A stretch of DNA of 64,000 bases, from the NCBI RefSeq assembly GCF_044324785.1, contig NZ_CP172129.1. One strand, given 5' to 3'. Below, piece by piece: positions 2,325 through 8,300 of the stretch. Numbering within the stretch: position 1 is the stretch's first letter; each line of letters opens with the position of its first letter. A program made the position numbers. This stretch comes from Escherichia coli (GTDB taxonomy: Bacteria > Pseudomonadota > Gammaproteobacteria > Enterobacterales > Enterobacteriaceae).

Positions 2325-5300
2325 TCAATCAACTGTACGGATTTGTGATGAGTGACTCAGCTCATGCGCGGGACGCTTGCATGCGGGCTTAATACCCTCG
2401 GGTTCGCACGTGCTGCATGAGCTTTGCCAGACCTACAGATTCAGTTTATGCCATCTTCAAGATATAAGGATACGCTTCGCCGCTGCGGTCACCCGGTCCC
2501 TCCTTCCCGTCTGCCGTGATTTTCCGGTCGTTTACCCGCTCAGATTTCGCGGTCTCACCCTCCAACTCCCGCCAGCCGTGTGTGTCAGGCTGCGGCTTCC
2601 CTTGCGCCCTTTGCATCCCCGCCTTATCGCCCGGCTTTTATGGAGGCACGGCACAGCCCGGTGTCGCGGAATATGTGAACAACGGAGGAAATCCCATGCA
2701 GTATGCGAAACCTGTCACTCTGAATGTTGAAGAGTGCGACCGTCTGTCTTTTCTGCCTTACCTGTTTGGCAACGATTTTCTGTATGCCGAAGCATATGTG
2801 TACGCGCTGGCGCAAAAAATGATGCCGGAATATCAGGGAGGCTTCTGGCACTTCATCCGCCTGCCGGACGGTGGCGGTTACATGATGCCGGATGGCGACC
2901 GTTTTCATCTGGTTAACGGTGAAAACTGGTTTGACCGCACGGTCAGTGCCGATGCCGCAGGCATCATTCTGACTTCCCTTGTGATTAACCGCCAGTTGTG
3001 GCTGTACCACGACAGCGGTAACGCAGGGCTGACACACCTGTACCGGATGCGTGATGCGCAGTTGTGGAGCCACATCGAATTTCACCCCGAATGTAACGCG
3101 ATTTACGCGGCGCTGGACTGATTAACGGACGGGGCGGCAATGCCGCCCCTGTAAAGGAGACGAGAACATGTACTGTTAAAGAAATTATCCGCGATGTACT
3201 GGATACAGACGTGCCGGACAGTGAATGCGTTTTTGCCGTGGTGCTGACCCGTGGGAATGTGCGCCATATGGCTCAGGACTGGAACCTGTCAGACGATGAG
3301 CTGGAAACCGTCATGCAGCGGCTGGACGATGCTTTTGTATATGGCGCATGTGACAGAGTTGTTTCCGATATTGTCAATGAACTGATGGAGGAAAAGCGCG
3401 TAAACCGCCTTGTAACAGTCCCTGCGGTGCTGCTGGAAAAAGTGATGGTGATGGCTGGTAGTGAAATTTATCGCCTCCATGCTGTCGGGAGCGAGAACGG
3501 GGGCGACGGTGACGCATTTGTCAGGGAAGAACGTGAGATTATGCGGGTGATGCGTCAGGCGCTGGACGGGGAGAACGGGTAATGAATATCAGCACGGAAA
3601 CCCGCGAAATTCTGCGTAATTACAAAACCGTGATTAATGCGCGGCGTCGTGAGATGGGGCAGAAACCGCTCACCACCGCGCAGATTGTTGATGAAATCTG
3701 CGATTTTGTGACGAATCAGCAGGCGGTTTTCCTCGGTGGTCACTATATCCTTCAGGGCAGCTGAAACAGGTGATACAGGGCAGGCGGTGGAGGCCGCCTG
3801 TCAGCCCGCGCGAACCCCCCTGGCAGGCTGACGCCTGCCGGAAGGGAAGCGGGCCACGCTGACGCGTCGCCCGTTACCCTTCCCGTTAGTGATGTGTCCG
3901 GAATGTTTTTTCTGATGTTATTTTTCTGTGGTTACCGTGTTTGTTATTGTTCTTCTTCTTTTTCCTCTTCCTCTTCTTTCCGTTCCTCTCCTGTTTATGG
4001 CTTTTCCGGGCGTCCCCCTGGCGGGGCGGGCTGTCGTGAACGGAGCCAGCGGAGCTGTCTCCGCCCTGGCGGGCTTCCATCCCTGACGCGAAACCATGGC
4101 TTGCAGCGACCGTTCCGGTCGCGCCGCCTCTGTCGCGCCGTGGCCTGCGCTCCCGGCATCCCGGCAAAAGGCGCCGGAATGTAAGGAGCAACGCCGTTTC
4201 GCAAACCGCGCTTCACGTCGTTGCGGCGGGTCCCTGCTCATTGCCTGCCAAGTGCCACACACCCGTATGAGTCCCTGTCGCCGGGGGCTGAGACAGCCAC
4301 AACCTGCCGCACTGACTGTCCAGGGTAAATGAACAGCCCACAAAATTTTTTACCCAGAACCCGGTAAAAAATTTTGCGTTCTGCCCAGGACAGGTGCGTC
4401 AGGCCGTGGCAGTGATGCCCCTTGCGGCGAAGGTTCTCAAACGGGTGAAGTTCATACCACAGGGAATACAGCAGCAGGTTCCCGCGAAACGTCAAAACCG
4501 CGGCTCCCGAAACTCAACGGGTGATGTTCTTTAAAAATCAGGATTTATTTCAGGCTCCGGCAATACGCATTTATTTGTTCTGTCAGTCATCCGGCTGGCA
4601 GGTAATGAGAACGCAGGAACAGAAGGAGGAAAACACCGGAAAGCGTCAGATGCAGATATGAAAAAAGCAGGTCAGGGACCTGCTTAATCCACGCCGTAGA
4701 AATCGCCGCAATCGATTTTCACGGCTTCACTAACCTGTGTCATAAGGAGTTTCATTTATGACAGTAAGTATTGTTTCACCTTCCGCAGCGGCTGTAAAGC
4801 CCCGCCGTCATCCCCGTTTCAGACGCGAAGACATCCCCGCGCCGGAAATTGACCCCGTGCTGAAAGCATTCGGGCGACACATAGCCCGGAGTTTTCACCG
4901 GGGACGTGGTGTACACATCCCCGCCATGAAAAACACGGCTTTCGGGCAGGTGCTCCGCACACTTGAACTGAAACGCGCTTTTAACTGATGAGGTGAGCCG
5001 CCCCGCGAGGGGCGGCAACAGACGGAAGGAGAACATTTTATGACATTAGCAGCAATCACCATGACCGCCCCAGAAGCCGCCAGCCCTGTGCAGATGTACC
5101 GCGCGACCTACTCACCGGATGACAACAAACTGCGCCTGTATGCTGCGTCACGTCTTGACCCGGAGACGTATAAAAAAGTGCATGATGCCGGTTTTCGCTG
5201 GGCACCAAAACAGGCGCTGTTTGTGGCTCCAGCCTGGACACCGGGCCGGGAAGACGTGCTCCTCTCACTTGCCGGAGAGATTGAGGATGAAGACAGCACG

Positions 5301-8300
5301 CTCGCTGAACGTCAGGAAGCACGGGCGGAGCGGTTTACCGGATACAGCGGAAAGCGGGCCAGTGAATCCGCACAGGCACTTGATGAAGTGGAAAGACTGG
5401 CCGCGATGATCCCGCCCGGTCAGCCCATTCTTGTGGGGCATCACAGCGAACGCCGCGCCCGTCGTGATGCGCAGCGTATTGAAAACGGCATGAAACGTGC
5501 CGTGATGCTCGTTGAACGTGCGGAATACTGGGAAGAGCGGGCGCGGTCGGCACTGCTTCACGCGAAGTATAAAGAACGTCCGGACGTTCGCTGGCGTCGT
5601 ATCAAAAAAATCGAAGCTGATTTGCGCAAGGCTGAAAAGACCATCGCGCAGTCGCAGAAATATCTGACGATATGGCGGGCTGAATCGCTGGATCTGAATA
5701 TGGCAAAACTCATCAGTAGTCATGACCGTATCAGTGCCTGTTTCCCGCTGGATACGTATCCGCGCCCGGCAGAAAAAAGCCAGTATGAAGGAAGTCGATC
5801 GTTATGGTCGGCCCTGGATGATGACATCATCACCACGGAGCAGGCCCGCGAAATTGCGATCCGCTGTCATAAACGGCAGATTCAGCATCAGCAACGCTGG
5901 GTTAACCACTATCAGAACCGCCTGATCTATGAGCGTGCCATGCTGGACGAAAGCGGCGGCGTGGTTACCCGGACACAGGATTTTGAGCCGGGCGGACAGG
6001 TTTTCAGCCGGGGCGAGTGGCTGACCATCATCCGCGTGAACAAAAGCAACGGGACGGTGAGTTCAGTCACAACGCCGAATTACAGTTTTCTCGGGTACAG
6101 TGGCACGATGAAAGTGACGCCCGATCGCATTACGGACTACAAAGCACCATCGGCAGAAGAGGCTGCCGTCGCCAGTCAGGCCGCTAAGCGTCCGCCTGTT
6201 GTCAACTATCCGGGAGAAGGTTTCCGGGAAATGACAAAGGCACAGTGGGCTGCCCTGCCCCGGGACTGTAAGGCCGTGCGCAGTGTGGCAGAGGCAGAAG
6301 ACCACGGGGCATATCGTTACCGCCGCACAATGGACAATAATTTCCGCCTGGTGAATGTGTATATCACCGACATGAAGATTACGGAAATCCCACAGAAATA
6401 AGGTATATCCTCCCGGGAAAATCCCCGGGGGATGACGGAGATAATGACATGTACAGTCAGTTAAGAGAACGTATCCGGCTGATGCGCGCAAGGCTGGATA
6501 ACGCCGCGCCGGTTGCTGAAATCCGGGCTGAATCTCAGCTTTTTGTGACTCCTGCCCCGGTCTGTGATCGCCTGGTGACGCTGGCGGGGATCAGCAACCG
6601 TGATCACATTCTGGAACCCTCTGCCGGCACCGGGGCCATACTGCGGGCGATTAGGGATACCGCGCCGGTAGCCATGTGTGATGCGGTGGAAATCAACAGC
6701 GGGCTGGTCCGGTATCTGCGGGAAAATTTTAACGGTGTCAGGGTTCAGTGTGGCGACTTCATGGAATGGCAGCCGGTGCAGTATTACAGCCGGGTTATCA
6801 TGAATCCGCCGTTCAGCCACGGGCAGGATATCCGGCATATCCTGCGGGCCTTTTCCCTGTTGCGTCCGGGTGGCGTGCTGGTCGCCGTCTGTCTCAACGG
6901 GCCACGCCAGCAGGAGAAGCTGTTACCGTTTTCTGACGTCCGCGAGGAGCTGCCGCGCGGCACATTTGCTTATACCGATGTCCCGACGATGATTATTCGT
7001 CTGCGTGCCTGAAGACTCCGGGCAGGCGGGAGGATAAATGCTCGTCTGCCCGCGCCGGGAAAAGACCGCGCGCCGGTGGCGCTGAAAGGGGCCGCGCTCA
7101 CGCGCCGCCCCTTTCATTACGCGGAAATTCTGCTGTGGGCTTCTGTCTTTTCAGATCTGTCATTTGTCTGTTACTGATGATGTTCCTGCTACTGCTACTG
7201 TTTTTCTTTTTTCTGCTGCTCTGATTACTGTCTGTCTTGTTCTTCTTCTGCCTGTGCCTTTTCCGGGCGTCCCCCTGGCGGGGCGGGCTGTCGTGAACGG
7301 AGCCAGCGGAGCTGTCTCCGCCCTGGCGGGCTTCCATCCCTGACGCAAAACCCCTGGCTTGCAGCGACTGTTCCGGTCGCGCGCCTCTGTCGCGCCGTGG
7401 CCTGCGCTCCTGGCATCCCGGCAAAAGGCCGCCGGGATGTAAGGCGCAACGCCGTTTCGCAAACCGCGCTTCACGTCGTTGCGGCGGGTCCCTGCCCGTT
7501 GTTATGTCCGGTGCCATTCACCTGTTTAAGCCCCTGTCGCCGGGGGCAAAGACAGCCACAACCGTCTCCGCCAGTCCAGGGGTGAAATGCACATCCCGCA
7601 AAACTTTTTGCCCAAAAGCAGGCAAAAACTTTTGCGGTCTGCCCCCGGACAGTCGTTTCCTGCCGTGGCAGTGATGCCCCTTGCGGCGAAGGTTTTCAAA
7701 AAGGTGATGGTGAATACCGGAGGGAACAAAAGGCAGGTCCCCGCAAAACGTCAAAACCGCGGCTCCCGAAACTCAAAAGATGATGGGGCTGAAAACATCA
7801 ACAGAAGGAGACACATCATGGCAGTTCGTGGCATTAACAAGGTCATTCTCGTAGGACGCCTGGGAAAAGATCCGGAAGTCCGTTACATCCCCAACGGGGG
7901 CGCAGTGGCAAACCTGCAGGTGGCCACATCAGAAAGCTGGCGTGACAAACAGACGGGGGAGATGCGGGAGCAGACAGAATGGCATCGTGTGGTGCTGTTC
8001 GGCAAGCTCGCGGAAGTGGCAGGTGAATATCTGCGCAAGGGCGCGCAGGTCTACATCGAAGGTCAGCTTCGCACCCGTAGCTGGGAGGATAACGGTATCA
8101 CCCGTTACGTCACCGAAATTCTTGTTAAGACCACGGGCACCATGCAGATGCTGGGACGTGTCGCAGGTGCTCAGACTCAGCCGGAAGAGGGGCAACAGTT
8201 CAGCGGTCAGTCTCAGCCGGAACCACAGGCGGAGGCCGGTACGAAAAAAGGAGGCGCAAAAACGAAAGGCCGTGGACGTAAGGCCACGCAGCCGGAGTCG

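What the first reader, a model, noticed from the sequence alone, without database searches (positions are those of the whole stretch)
4758..7012. First repeat-headed operon: small basic protein, 453-aa unknown protein and orphan adenine methyltransferase as anti-defence candidates
Directly downstream of repeat copy A are three co-oriented genes with good RBSs: a 76-aa basic protein, a 453-aa protein with an Arg/Lys-rich helical core and no motif I can assign, and a 187-aa methyltransferase with SAM motif EPSAGTG and NPPF, with no cognate endonuclease. Orphan methyltransferases in leading regions are thought to pre-protect incoming DNA from recipient restriction. Their operon partners are plausible uncharacterised anti-defence factors such as restriction, CRISPR or SOS inhibitors.
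Basis: partly seen in the sequence, partly recalled or inferred. Interest (0 to 1): 0.65.

Follow-up and report, generated by a model that had tools for sequence, protein, structure and literature searches.

The report
Split early-entry methyltransferase of F-like plasmids
This three-gene operon in the first-transferred region of an IncF plasmid is real; its 453-aa and 187-aa genes are the two halves of one methyltransferase that probably methylates incoming plasmid DNA, so it is a new variant of a known trick, not a set of new inhibitors.

Summary
Three co-oriented genes with good ribosome-binding sites lie at 4758-7012, downstream of a repeat. The window is the leading region of a ColV/pS88-type IncF plasmid, where the genes are already named ydbA (DUF3560) and ydcA ("putative adenine methylase"). 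At least 5000 sequenced plasmids carry the module.

The repeat is 91% identical to the F plasmid single-strand promoter Frpo, and the transferred strand is the template for these genes. Early expression in the recipient is therefore likely.

The main new result concerns the 453-aa protein. In 99 of its 150 most similar 50%-identity cluster representatives it is fused to a domain homologous to the 187-aa methyltransferase. The methyltransferase has intact catalytic motifs but no target-recognition domain. The two genes therefore most likely encode one two-part, TaqI/EcoKI/DarB-like N6-adenine methyltransferase, not a methylase plus an unrelated inhibitor.

The 76-aa gene is real (dN/dS 0.1-0.2), very basic, and confined to Enterobacterales. 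A known antisense RNA, AS-pc01, covers its start.

The classical F plasmid lacks the cassette, apparently through recombination between the flanking repeats.

The function is inferred, not shown. The concept is already published (M.EcoGIX; Samuel 2024), and the family is listed there as uncharacterised.

The parts
3990..4541 (-). Repeat copy A. The core at 4271-4526 is a homologue of the F plasmid single-strand promoter Frpo and acts on the transferred (-) strand. About 280 nt upstream of the core (3990-4270) are also repeated.
   Evidence: There are three copies in the window. The 288-nt Frpo used experimentally by Samuel et al. (Supplementary file 11) matches 4271-4526 at 91.4%, 7532-7817 at 87.9% and 12923-13188 at 98.1%. 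As single-stranded DNA, the - strand of 4230-4480 folds into a long imperfect hairpin with dG -73.3 kcal/mol and z = -9.25, with 0 of 200 shuffles as stable. The -35/-10 boxes in the stem were not assigned.
4542..4757 (+). Leader unique to copy A. It is absent from copies B and C, which run straight into their first gene.
   Evidence: Alignment of the three copies with the F segment upstream of ssb.
4662..4763 (-). AS-pc01 cis-antisense RNA (Rfam RF02875). It is complementary to the Shine-Dalgarno sequence and start codon of the 76-aa gene. A promoter-like site lies at 4798-4770 (-) and an intrinsic terminator at 4685-4665 (-).
   Evidence: Full-length Rfam match of 105 bits against a gathering score of 79. 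The first hairpin contains CAU and CUCC, the complements of the ATG and the SD. The promoter-like and terminator-like sites come from the consensus scan. The RNA sits at the same position in a Klebsiella and a Raoultella plasmid. It was detected by RT-qPCR in PMC12370729.
4758..4988 (+). 76-aa basic protein of pI 11.9, named YdaB in one UniRef entry. It is possibly a small HU-like DNA-binding protein.
   Evidence: ORF and RBS. dN/dS is 0.11-0.23. There are 234 homologue clusters; all named ones among the 120 listed are Enterobacterales, at 75% identity or more. The Pfam HU-CCDC81 match is weak and partial, E = 1e-4 to 7e-4. There is no match in PDB, NCBIfam or PHROGs.
5040..6401 (+). ydbA: 453-aa DUF3560 protein, predicted to be the non-catalytic targeting or DNA-binding half of the methyltransferase. 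The DUF3560 domain is encoded at 5304-5657.
   Evidence: Pfam DUF3560, E=1e-36. It is named ydbA (pS88047) in PMC3438092. 99 of the 150 representatives are fused to a ydcA-like domain. The AF2 model has pLDDT 93.6 and pTM 0.83, and shows an N-terminal alpha/beta domain, a bundle of four long helices and C-terminal small beta domains. The invariant residues are mostly arginines: R91, R167, R186, R187, R196 and R294, together with W164, H290 and E298, and there is a near-invariant GQPILVGHHSE loop. It has no structural relative outside its own family.
6403..6436 (+). Conserved GC-rich hairpin in the spacer between ydbA and ydcA.
   Evidence: It is present in all five Enterobacterales lineages examined, with different loops. 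The spacer is always 45-48 nt, although the reading frames of the two genes differ between lineages.
6449..7012 (+). ydcA: 187-aa class I SAM-dependent N6-adenine-type methyltransferase. It is the catalytic core only, with no target-recognition domain. Motif I is at 6614-6634 and NPPF at 6803-6814.
   Evidence: Pfam MTS and Methyltransf_25. The best solved relative by sequence is M.TaqI residues 22-164, at E=2e-5 alone and E=7e-9 for the family profile. Foldseek places type I HsdM, PacII M and M.TaqI on top. The methyltransferase domains of giant phage proteins match at E=1e-30 to 1e-32. NPPF is kept in 86 of 88 fused homologues.
7020..7116 (+). GC-rich hairpins after ydcA that look like terminators and probably mark the end of the operon, just before repeat copy B.
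   Evidence: RNA fold of 7010-7125: dG -64.2 kcal/mol, z = -3.5. Termination was not verified and there is no clean U-run.
15324..15343 (-). F-type oriT nic-site sequence, which shows that the - strand is the transferred strand.
   Evidence: Exact and unique match to GCGTGGGGTGTGGTGCTTTT on the - strand. The traJ 5' UTR and FinP lie at 16121-16232. That this sequence is the TraI nic site comes from my own knowledge of F oriT.

Best explanation
This is a cassette that is switched on early in the recipient cell, carried in the leading region of F-like plasmids.

Step 1, shown by homology and orientation. During conjugation the - strand enters the recipient starting from the nic at about 15332. 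Repeat copy A then folds on that single strand into the long Frpo-type hairpin, which acts as a promoter. Host RNA polymerase transcribes ydaB-ydbA-ydcA from the incoming strand before the complementary strand is made.

Step 2, inferred from gene fusion, co-occurrence and the missing recognition domain. YdbA (DUF3560) and YdcA together form one enzyme. YdcA is only the SAM-binding catalytic core of a TaqI/EcoKI/DarB-like N6-adenine methyltransferase. YdbA is an arginine-rich helical protein with small end domains, and it supplies substrate binding and targeting. It plays the role taken by a recognition domain or subunit in other enzymes of this class.

Step 3, inferred by analogy with M.EcoGIX and DarB. 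The pair methylates adenines on the incoming plasmid DNA, probably with low sequence specificity. The newly made duplex is then already protected from the recipient's restriction enzymes.

Step 4, inferred. Expression stops when the promoter hairpin is converted to duplex. The antisense RNA AS-pc01 can only be made once the complementary strand exists, and it then blocks the ribosome-binding site of the first gene, so the enzyme is not made in established cells.

The 76-aa basic protein is a lineage-specific accessory, possibly a DNA-binding one. Its role is unknown.
For: Context: the window is 100% identical to pECOS88/pS88-type IncF plasmids, and at least 5000 plasmid records match.

Strand: the nic site is on the - strand and the genes are on the + strand.

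Promoter: copy A is 91.4% identical to the Frpo that drove leading-strand-dependent expression in Samuel et al.. Its transferred strand folds with z = -9.25. No sigma-70-like promoter was found on the + strand in 3800-7700.

One enzyme, fusion: 99 of the 150 best 50%-identity representatives of the 453-aa protein also carry a YdcA homologue at the C-terminus. phmmer E-values for the first 15 shown run from 1e-15 to 1e-40 (apart from one 97%-identical chimera), typical lengths are 630-700 aa, and NPPF is present in 86 of 88.

One enzyme, natural examples: fused forms sit among ssb, DUF932 and kleA on a MOBF/MPF_F betaproteobacterial plasmid.

One enzyme, co-occurrence: the two parts are contiguous in 4981 of 5000 plasmid records.

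One enzyme, stable split: the split form has a fixed 45-48-nt spacer and both genes are under purifying selection.

One enzyme, missing domain: YdcA aligns only with the catalytic domain of M.TaqI.

Enzyme class: the top structural matches are DNA m6A methyltransferases, namely HsdM, PacII and M.TaqI. The phage methyltransferase domains that match at 1e-30 to 1e-32 lie in giant proteins. I equate these with the clade Iyer et al. classify as EcoKI/TaqI-like DNA adenine MTases with DarB as archetype (PMC5512222). That equation is my inference; DarB itself was not compared.

Precedent: M.EcoGIX is expressed from an ssi/Frpo and protects pESBL on entry (PMC7736820). Orphan MTases are enriched on the transferred-strand side of leading regions (PMC11541004). 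The YdbA family is number 28 among the leading-region-enriched families there, with a median position of 12 genes from oriT.

Antisense RNA.
Against: No activity, product, substrate or interaction has been measured for YdbA or YdcA. I found no experimental paper on them.

Sequence and fold cannot separate a DNA substrate from an RNA substrate. Dim1/KsgA, Erm, TrmN and HemK score almost as well as M.TaqI.

In conflict systems, fusion can simply mean co-delivery of independent effectors (polyvalent proteins, PMC5512222). The fusion argument is therefore strong but not proof.

Adding the MTase to the model lowered pTM from 0.83 to 0.67, and the linker has low confidence. No fixed docking of the two parts is predicted.

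The -35/-10 elements of copy A were not located, and copy A diverges from Frpo over its last 30 nt or so.

The transcripts are detectable in pS88-bearing cells grown in broth, serum and urine (PMC3438092), so expression is not strictly limited to the moment of entry.
Confidence: 0.55

Rival explanations
1. The methyltransferase works alone, and the 453-aa and 76-aa proteins are independent anti-defence factors that inhibit restriction, CRISPR or SOS. They are merely co-expressed, and elsewhere co-fused, with the methyltransferase, as in polyvalent proteins.
For: Leading regions are enriched in anti-defence genes, and many of their families are uncharacterised. Conflict proteins often fuse unrelated effectors. 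The predicted link between the two parts is flexible. The 76-aa protein has no assigned function and does not travel with the fused forms.
Against: The pairing is nearly one-to-one: 99 of 150 representatives are fused and 4981 of 5000 plasmid records have the parts contiguous. This differs from the mix-and-match pattern typical of polyvalent proteins. YdcA has no recognition domain of its own. YdbA matches no known inhibitor by sequence or fold.
Confidence: 0.15
2. The YdbA-YdcA enzyme methylates host RNA (rRNA or tRNA adenine) or a protein rather than DNA. It would reprogramme the new host during establishment.
For: The NCBIfam and PDB matches to Erm, KsgA/Dim1, TrmN, PrmC/HemK and RsmC-type MTS enzymes are almost as good as those to M.TaqI. 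Another leading-region protein, YfjB, is reported to reprogramme the host (PMC13370423 abstract).
Against: The closest homologues by a wide margin (E = 1e-30 to 1e-32) are the methyltransferase domains of large phage proteins. I take these to be the clade classified as EcoKI/TaqI-like DNA adenine MTases. The top Foldseek matches are DNA m6A enzymes. All such matches are below each family's curated cut-off.
Confidence: 0.15
3. The enzyme methylates plasmid DNA, but for the plasmid's own DNA processing and not to evade restriction. Examples are marking the transferred strand, avoiding mismatch repair, or timing complementary-strand synthesis.
For: Leading-region single-strand promoters also control conversion kinetics (bioRxiv 10.64898/2026.01.09.698686). 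M.EcoGIX is linked to DNA polymerase I and affects copy number.
Against: The cassette is dispensable: F lacks it and conjugates well. Its neighbours are antirestriction genes. The related DarB and M.EcoGIX are both linked to evading restriction.
Confidence: 0.1
4. The 76-aa gene and AS-pc01 form a type I toxin-antitoxin-like or addiction pair, with the other two genes as passengers.
For: A short antisense RNA with its own promoter and terminator covers the SD and ATG of a small ORF. This resembles hok/sok, which lies in the same leading region.
Against: The protein is hydrophilic and highly basic, with no membrane segment (sequence), unlike Hok-type toxins. It heads a three-gene operon.
Confidence: 0.07

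Closest known systems
M.EcoGIX of IncI1 pESBL, and its F homologue YubD (Fomenkov et al. 2020, PMC7736820; Wen et al. 2025, PMC12672017)
   Same: An orphan adenine methyltransferase in the leading region, encoded so that the transferred strand is the template. It is headed by a single-strand promoter and induced in the recipient. It is proposed, and for M.EcoGIX shown, to protect the entering plasmid from restriction.
   Different: There is no detectable sequence relationship: BLASTP E=0.22 against the F homologue. M.EcoGIX-type enzymes have the opposite motif order, with motif I near the C-terminus. They are single polypeptides and use a different class of single-strand promoter (class 3 in Wen et al.). 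This cassette uses a class-1 Frpo copy and needs, by inference, a DUF3560 partner. Serratia and Edwardsiella plasmids carry both systems in the same leading region.
DarB-type methyltransferase domains of injected polyvalent proteins of phages and conjugative elements (Iyer et al. 2017, PMC5512222)
   Same: By my inference, the same clade of EcoKI/TaqI-like adenine methyltransferase domain. PHROG matches are E = 1e-30 to 1e-32, and examples are a 2741-aa protein in Shewanella phage X14 and large proteins in Pseudomonas phages. Both act at the moment foreign DNA enters a cell. P1 DarB itself was not compared.
   Different: There the domain is flanked by LPD36 and an SF2 helicase and is delivered as protein. 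Here it is a free-standing 187-aa protein paired with DUF3560, has no helicase, and is made in the recipient from the incoming strand.
Type I modification methyltransferases (HsdM plus HsdS) and M.TaqI
   Same: The same catalytic fold and motifs. As in HsdM/HsdS, recognition would be supplied by a separate polypeptide built around long helices.
   Different: YdbA is not detectably related to HsdS or to the M.TaqI recognition domain. There is no restriction subunit. The specificity is unknown.
Frpo/ssi class-1 single-strand promoters of F and ColIb-P9
   Same: Copy A is 91% identical to the validated F Frpo and folds in the same way.
   Different: It is followed by a 217-nt leader carrying an antisense RNA gene, which the ssb and oriT-proximal copies lack.

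Membership tests
Frpo/ssi class-1 single-strand-promoter operon of a conjugative leading region | Lies in the leading region, with the transferred strand as template | tested here: met
   The nic sequence is on the - strand at 15343-15324. The genes are on the + strand, 8.3-10.6 kb from nic.
Frpo/ssi class-1 single-strand-promoter operon of a conjugative leading region | Sequence homology to a validated Frpo | tested here: met
   91.4% over 257 nt to the Frpo of the Samuel et al. 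construct.
Frpo/ssi class-1 single-strand-promoter operon of a conjugative leading region | The transferred strand folds into a long imperfect hairpin | tested here: met
   dG -73.3 kcal/mol, z = -9.25.
Frpo/ssi class-1 single-strand-promoter operon of a conjugative leading region | -35 and -10 boxes rebuilt in the stem, and a mapped start site | tested here: inconclusive
   I could not assign convincing hexamers by eye on the fold. The consensus scan covers duplex sites only.
Frpo/ssi class-1 single-strand-promoter operon of a conjugative leading region | Recipient-specific transcription from single-stranded DNA | not testable with these tools
   This needs 5' RACE or donor-elimination RNA-seq on a plasmid that carries the cassette. 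The published data are for F and pESBL, and F lacks the cassette; pESBL was not checked here.
Gamma-class (TaqI/EcoKI-like) N6-adenine DNA methyltransferase | Motif I (FxGxG-like) precedes motif IV (N/D)PP(Y/F), and the acidic motif II and III residues are present | tested here: met
   EPSAGTG at 56-62, E81, D103-F104 and NPPF at 119-122 (sequence; alignment to M.TaqI). NPPF is present in 86 of 88 fused homologues.
Gamma-class (TaqI/EcoKI-like) N6-adenine DNA methyltransferase | A target-recognition domain or subunit | tested here: not met
   YdcA aligns only with M.TaqI residues 22-164 of 421. The role is proposed for YdbA but not demonstrated.
Gamma-class (TaqI/EcoKI-like) N6-adenine DNA methyltransferase | Makes N6-methyladenine in DNA | not testable with these tools
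   RNA and protein amino-methyltransferases score similarly.
M.EcoGIX-type single-strand methyltransferases | Sequence homology to M.EcoGIX/YubD | tested here: not met
   BLASTP E=0.22 against the F homologue. That the F 227-aa methylase is the M.EcoGIX homologue follows PMC12672017.
M.EcoGIX-type single-strand methyltransferases | Activity restricted to single-stranded DNA, with a degenerate site | not testable with these tools
   No biochemical data exist.
DarB-like methylase-helicase module of polyvalent proteins | Methyltransferase domain of that clade | tested here: met
   PHROG families of 1259-3925 aa proteins match at E = 3e-32 to 7e-16. That these are the DarB clade of Iyer et al. is my inference; P1 DarB was not compared.
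DarB-like methylase-helicase module of polyvalent proteins | LPD36 at the N-terminus and an SF2 helicase at the C-terminus | tested here: not met
   YdcA is 187 aa. Its partner is DUF3560. No helicase was found by Pfam in 100 family members.
DUF3560 (Pfam PF12083) | Match to the family profile | tested here: met
   E=1e-36 for residues 89-206. All 100 aligned relatives match.
Known anti-restriction, anti-CRISPR or SOS-inhibitor proteins (ArdA, ArdB/KlcA, ArdC, PsiB, Acr) | Sequence or fold similarity of the 453-aa or 76-aa protein to any of them | tested here: not met
HU/IHF superfamily (76-aa protein) | Match to an HU-type profile over the whole domain | tested here: inconclusive
   Only a partial match, covering model positions 18-55 of 89, at E = 1e-4 to 7e-4 in 2 of 4 homologues and 0.1 or better in 4 of 4. 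Some sources name homologues DUF4496 or CCDC81 HU domain.
AS-pc01 antisense RNA (Rfam RF02875) | Score above the family's gathering threshold over the full model | tested here: met
   105 bits against 79, covering model positions 1-99 of 99.

The most novel reading that the evidence does not exclude
YdbA-YdcA is a new type of two-part adenine methyltransferase. A protein with a fold private to its own family (DUF3560) replaces the usual recognition domain. It directs a minimal catalytic core to the incoming single-stranded plasmid DNA, giving low-specificity methylation that blunts many restriction systems at once. The antisense RNA AS-pc01 can only be made after second-strand synthesis, so it acts as a built-in sensor of strand conversion that shuts the enzyme off.
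Probability: 0.3. Interest if true: 0.65.

Novelty: new variant of a known kind. Interest (0 to 1): 0.45.

Why it matters
IncF plasmids are the main carriers of resistance and virulence genes in E. coli, Klebsiella and Salmonella. This cassette is in at least 5000 of the 72,556 plasmid records searched.

The experimental work on early leading-region expression that I found used F and the IncI1 plasmid pESBL; F lacks the cassette, and pESBL was not examined here. F appears to have lost it through recombination between the two flanking promoter repeats. That would explain why one of the most common leading-region families is still listed as uncharacterised.

Reading ydbA and ydcA as one enzyme turns two unknowns into a single hypothesis that can be tested with standard methylome and mating assays. 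If it holds, F-like plasmids carry a second, unrelated early-entry methyltransferase besides the M.EcoGIX type. DUF3560 would also gain a role: 3868 relatives at E<=0.001 were found among representatives of the protein library.

Tried and rejected
- The UniProt-style names "Hydrolase" and "HD superfamily hydrolase" for YdbA. Pfam, NCBIfam and the fold searches give no support for them, so I treat them as propagated labels.
- A shared origin with M.EcoGIX/YubD. Rejected.
- Conservation of the 76-aa gene next to the fused homologues. It is absent from the betaproteobacterial and metagenomic loci examined. It is therefore not a core part of the enzyme.
- The word-index homologue search with the 187-aa protein. 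It reached only close Enterobacterales relatives, so it could not show how often this MTase occurs without DUF3560.
- Cluster look-up of the fused representatives. It returned no names.
- The concatenated 453+187 AF2 model. It gave good per-domain confidence, but no coordinates or PAE were available, so docking of the two parts could not be judged.
- Assigning -35/-10 boxes in the copy A hairpin by eye. This failed.
- Literature searches for experiments on ydbA, ydcA or DUF3560. They found only annotation tables, a transcript table for pS88 and titles on Klebsiella plasmid CRISPR-Cas that I did not read.

Full report
WHAT IS THERE. Each has a Shine-Dalgarno sequence 8 nt before its ATG. The segment 3900-7600 is 100% identical to pECOS88/pS88 and to many other ColV-type IncF plasmids. 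At least 5000 plasmid records match it, mostly conjugative MOBF/MPF_F plasmids of Escherichia, Klebsiella, Salmonella and Shigella.

In RefSeq the genes are annotated "hypothetical protein", "DUF3560 domain-containing protein" and "class I SAM-dependent methyltransferase". They lie between a klcA-type antirestriction gene with DUF1380 on one side and ssb on the other. In the pS88 literature the last two genes are ydbA and ydcA, the latter called a "putative adenine-specific DNA methylase" (PMC3438092). All three genes evolve under purifying selection relative to Klebsiella, Raoultella and Edwardsiella plasmids. dN/dS is 0.11-0.23, 0.08-0.10 and 0.16-0.30 respectively.

THE REPEAT AND THE STRAND. 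The window holds three copies of a repeat of about 620 nt, at roughly 3918-4541, 7175-7800 and 12565-13191. The 288-nt Frpo element that Samuel et al. placed in front of an anti-CRISPR gene is given in their Supplementary file 11. It matches 12923-13188 at 98.1%, 4271-4526 (copy A) at 91.4% and 7532-7817 at 87.9%.

The F-type nic sequence GCGTGGGGTGTGGTGCTTTT occurs once, exactly, on the - strand at 15343-15324. Its identity as the TraI nic site is from my own knowledge. The traJ leader and FinP lie at about 16.1-16.2 kb. The - strand is therefore the transferred strand. It enters with the leading region first and is the template for + strand genes. As single-stranded DNA, the - strand of copy A folds into a long imperfect hairpin with dG -73.3 kcal/mol and z = -9.25. 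No sigma-70-like duplex promoter was found on the + strand between 3800 and 7700.

This is the anatomy of a class-1 single-strand promoter operon as described for F and pESBL (PMC12672017; bioRxiv 10.64898/2026.01.09.698686). I could not place the -35/-10 boxes. Transcription in recipients remains an inference.

THE LEADER AND ITS ANTISENSE RNA. Copies B and C run straight into their first gene. Copy A is instead followed by 217 nt that are unique to it. On the opposite strand this leader encodes the Rfam family AS-pc01, "antisense to pHK01_035". The match covers 4763 to 4662 at 105 bits, against a gathering score of 79.

A promoter-like site lies at 4798-4770 and an intrinsic terminator at 4685-4665, both on the - strand. 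The first hairpin of the RNA is the complement of the SD and ATG of the 76-aa gene. The RNA occupies the same position in a Klebsiella and a Raoultella plasmid. It has been detected by RT-qPCR (PMC12370729).

The template for this RNA is the complementary strand, which does not exist until the incoming DNA has been converted to duplex. I therefore propose that AS-pc01 acts as a second lock that silences the operon after establishment. That is inference.

THE METHYLTRANSFERASE. YdcA carries motif I (EPSAGTG, residues 56-62), E81, D103-F104 and motif IV (NPPF, residues 119-122), so it is not catalytically dead. Its best solved relative by sequence is M.TaqI, but only residues 22-164 of 421, which is the catalytic domain. 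The family profile gives M.TaqI at E=7e-9 and Dim1 at 1e-8, followed by PacII, HemK and HsdM. Foldseek on the model ranks type I HsdM, PacII M and M.TaqI first.

Much stronger matches, at E = 1e-30 to 1e-32, are to PHROG families of proteins 1259-3925 aa long. Examples are a 2741-aa protein encoded beside the tailspike gene in Shewanella phage X14 and large proteins of Pseudomonas phages. Iyer et al. describe a methyltransferase domain of injected polyvalent proteins, classed as EcoKI/TaqI-like DNA adenine methylases with P1 DarB as archetype (PMC5512222). I take the PHROG matches to belong to that clade. This is my inference; DarB itself was not compared.

YdcA is unrelated in sequence to the F homologue of M.EcoGIX (E=0.22). 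Serratia and Edwardsiella plasmids carry both kinds of enzyme in one leading region.

THE 453-aa PROTEIN IS THE OTHER HALF OF THE ENZYME. A search of 1.84 billion representative proteins found 3868 relatives at E<=0.001. Of the 150 best, 99 also contain a C-terminal domain homologous to YdcA. phmmer E-values for the first 15 shown run from about 1e-15 to 1e-40, apart from one 97%-identical chimera. Typical lengths are 630-700 aa, and NPPF is present in 86 of 88.

Fused proteins are encoded on MOBF/MPF_F plasmids of Alicycliphilus, Acidovorax, Cupriavidus, Burkholderia and others. On pALIDE201 the gene sits among ssb, DUF932, kleA and radC. A 1453-aa version lies in a phage-like contig next to a polyvalent-protein-associated LPD29 gene.

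With a fused protein as tblastn query, 4981 of the 5000 top plasmid records have both parts contiguous. In the Enterobacterales loci examined the gene is split. The spacer is always 45-48 nt and contains a conserved GC hairpin, although the two frames differ between lineages. The split is therefore a stable arrangement and not a recent frameshift.

AlphaFold2 models are confident. The 453-aa protein alone reaches pLDDT 93.6 and pTM 0.83. The concatenated pair reaches pLDDT 89.9 and pTM 0.67, with a low-confidence linker. YdbA has a small N-terminal alpha/beta domain, a bundle of four long helices and small C-terminal beta domains. Its invariant residues are mainly arginines, together with W164, H290 and E298, and there is a near-invariant GQPILVGHHSE loop. 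Neither PDB nor AFDB50 holds a relative outside the family.

A catalytic core with no recognition domain is consistently joined to, or adjacent to, this protein. That is the classic signature of two parts of one enzyme. The caveat is that conflict proteins sometimes fuse independent effectors.

THE 76-aa PROTEIN. It is a real gene with pI 11.9. Its homologues fall into 234 clusters; all named ones among the 120 listed are from Enterobacterales plasmids, at 75% identity or more. It is absent next to the fused homologues. The only lead is a weak, partial match to the HU-CCDC81 profile. Some databases name homologues DUF4496 or CCDC81 HU domain. I consider it a lineage-specific accessory whose function is open.

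MOST LIKELY MECHANISM. On entry, Frpo copy A drives ydaB-ydbA-ydcA from the single transferred strand. YdbA and YdcA assemble into an adenine methyltransferase that modifies the incoming plasmid DNA, probably with low specificity. The duplex that forms is then pre-protected from restriction. Duplex formation switches Frpo off and AS-pc01 on. My rough confidences are 0.85 for recipient-specific expression, 0.75 for one enzyme, and 0.55 for a DNA substrate with an anti-restriction role.

The rivals are:
- an RNA or protein substrate;
- a role in the plasmid's own DNA processing;
- a toxin-antitoxin-like reading of the 76-aa gene with AS-pc01.

COMPARISON WITH WHAT IS KNOWN. The kind is known. 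It covers leading-region orphan methyltransferases expressed from single-strand promoters (M.EcoGIX, PMC7736820) and the general enrichment of MTases and anti-defence genes there (PMC11541004). Samuel et al. list the YdbA family as number 28 of the leading-region-enriched families. It has 1913 members, is templated by the transferred strand, and sits at a median position of 12 genes from oriT. Their label is "Uncharacterized; DUF3560; Methyltransferase domain protein". The family, and a hint of its link to a methyltransferase, are therefore already on record.

This analysis adds the following:
- explicit fusion and co-occurrence statistics, and the reading of ydbA and ydcA as a split enzyme;
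- the placement of the catalytic half with the methyltransferase domains of giant phage proteins (by inference the DarB clade) and not with M.EcoGIX;
- the overlap of AS-pc01 with the start of the operon;
- the origin of the F arrangement, described next.

I found no experimental study of these genes.

WHY F LACKS IT. F has a single Frpo upstream of ssb and no ydbA or ydcA. At the positions that distinguish copy A from copy B, the F sequence follows copy A up to window position 4402. From 4436, equivalent to 7695 in copy B, it follows copy B. That is what a recombination between the two direct repeats would leave, removing 3259 bp that contain the whole cassette. It would explain why the F-based work on early expression never met this module.

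VERDICT. I rate it a new variant of a known kind, of moderate interest, with a clear experimental path.

Noticed in passing
window 4402-4436 and 7661-7695; L002 9900-10660: The F plasmid's single Frpo upstream of ssb is a clean hybrid. It is copy-A-like on the left and copy-B-like on the right. This is what recombination between the two direct repeats would leave after deleting the 3259-bp ydaB-ydbA-ydcA cassette.
   Followed up: yes
window 6403-6436: A GC-rich hairpin (CUCCCCGG-loop-CCGGGGAG type) lies in the 45-48-nt spacer between ydbA and ydcA. It is conserved in Escherichia, Raoultella, Klebsiella, Serratia and Edwardsiella plasmids, with different loops. Its role is unknown; it could set the ratio of the two proteins or be a processing site.
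   Followed up: partly
window 7818-8450: The plasmid ssb gene has a 1-nt deletion three codons before the normal stop (GATATCCCG becomes GATACCCG). This replaces the C-terminal DDIPF tip with an unrelated tail of 35 residues that runs into the next gene. PLSDB's gene table lists no ssb for the twin plasmid pECOS88; that table omits pseudogenes.
   Followed up: partly
window 3990-4270, 7230-7530, 12620-12920: The repeat unit extends about 280 nt upstream of the 288-nt Frpo used experimentally. This part is nearly identical in all three copies and in F, and it forms its own stable hairpins on the transferred strand. Its function is not assigned.
   Followed up: partly
window 7098-7517 (- strand): RefSeq annotates a 135-aa hypothetical protein on the - strand inside Frpo copy B. 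Similar ORFs occur in copy A (for example 3886-4191 and 3918-4343). They lie within the promoter hairpins and are probably not genes.
   Followed up: no
proteins P0027, P0029, P0400, P0406: Public assemblies contain chimeric ORFs that join DUF3560 or the methyltransferase to PsiA, PsiB or an M.EcoGIX-type methylase. These are most simply explained by recombination, or by assembly collapse, across the Frpo repeats.
   Followed up: no
window 11979-12151, 16121-16232, 34697-34782, 44508-44584, 49519-49703, 51829-51919: Other Rfam matches above threshold are sok, the traJ 5' UTR with FinP, AS-traG, AS-traI, AS-pc02 and CopA. They are as expected for an IncF backbone.
   Followed up: no
L010 319-963 and L011 56-736: [quoted passage not shown]
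   Followed up: partly
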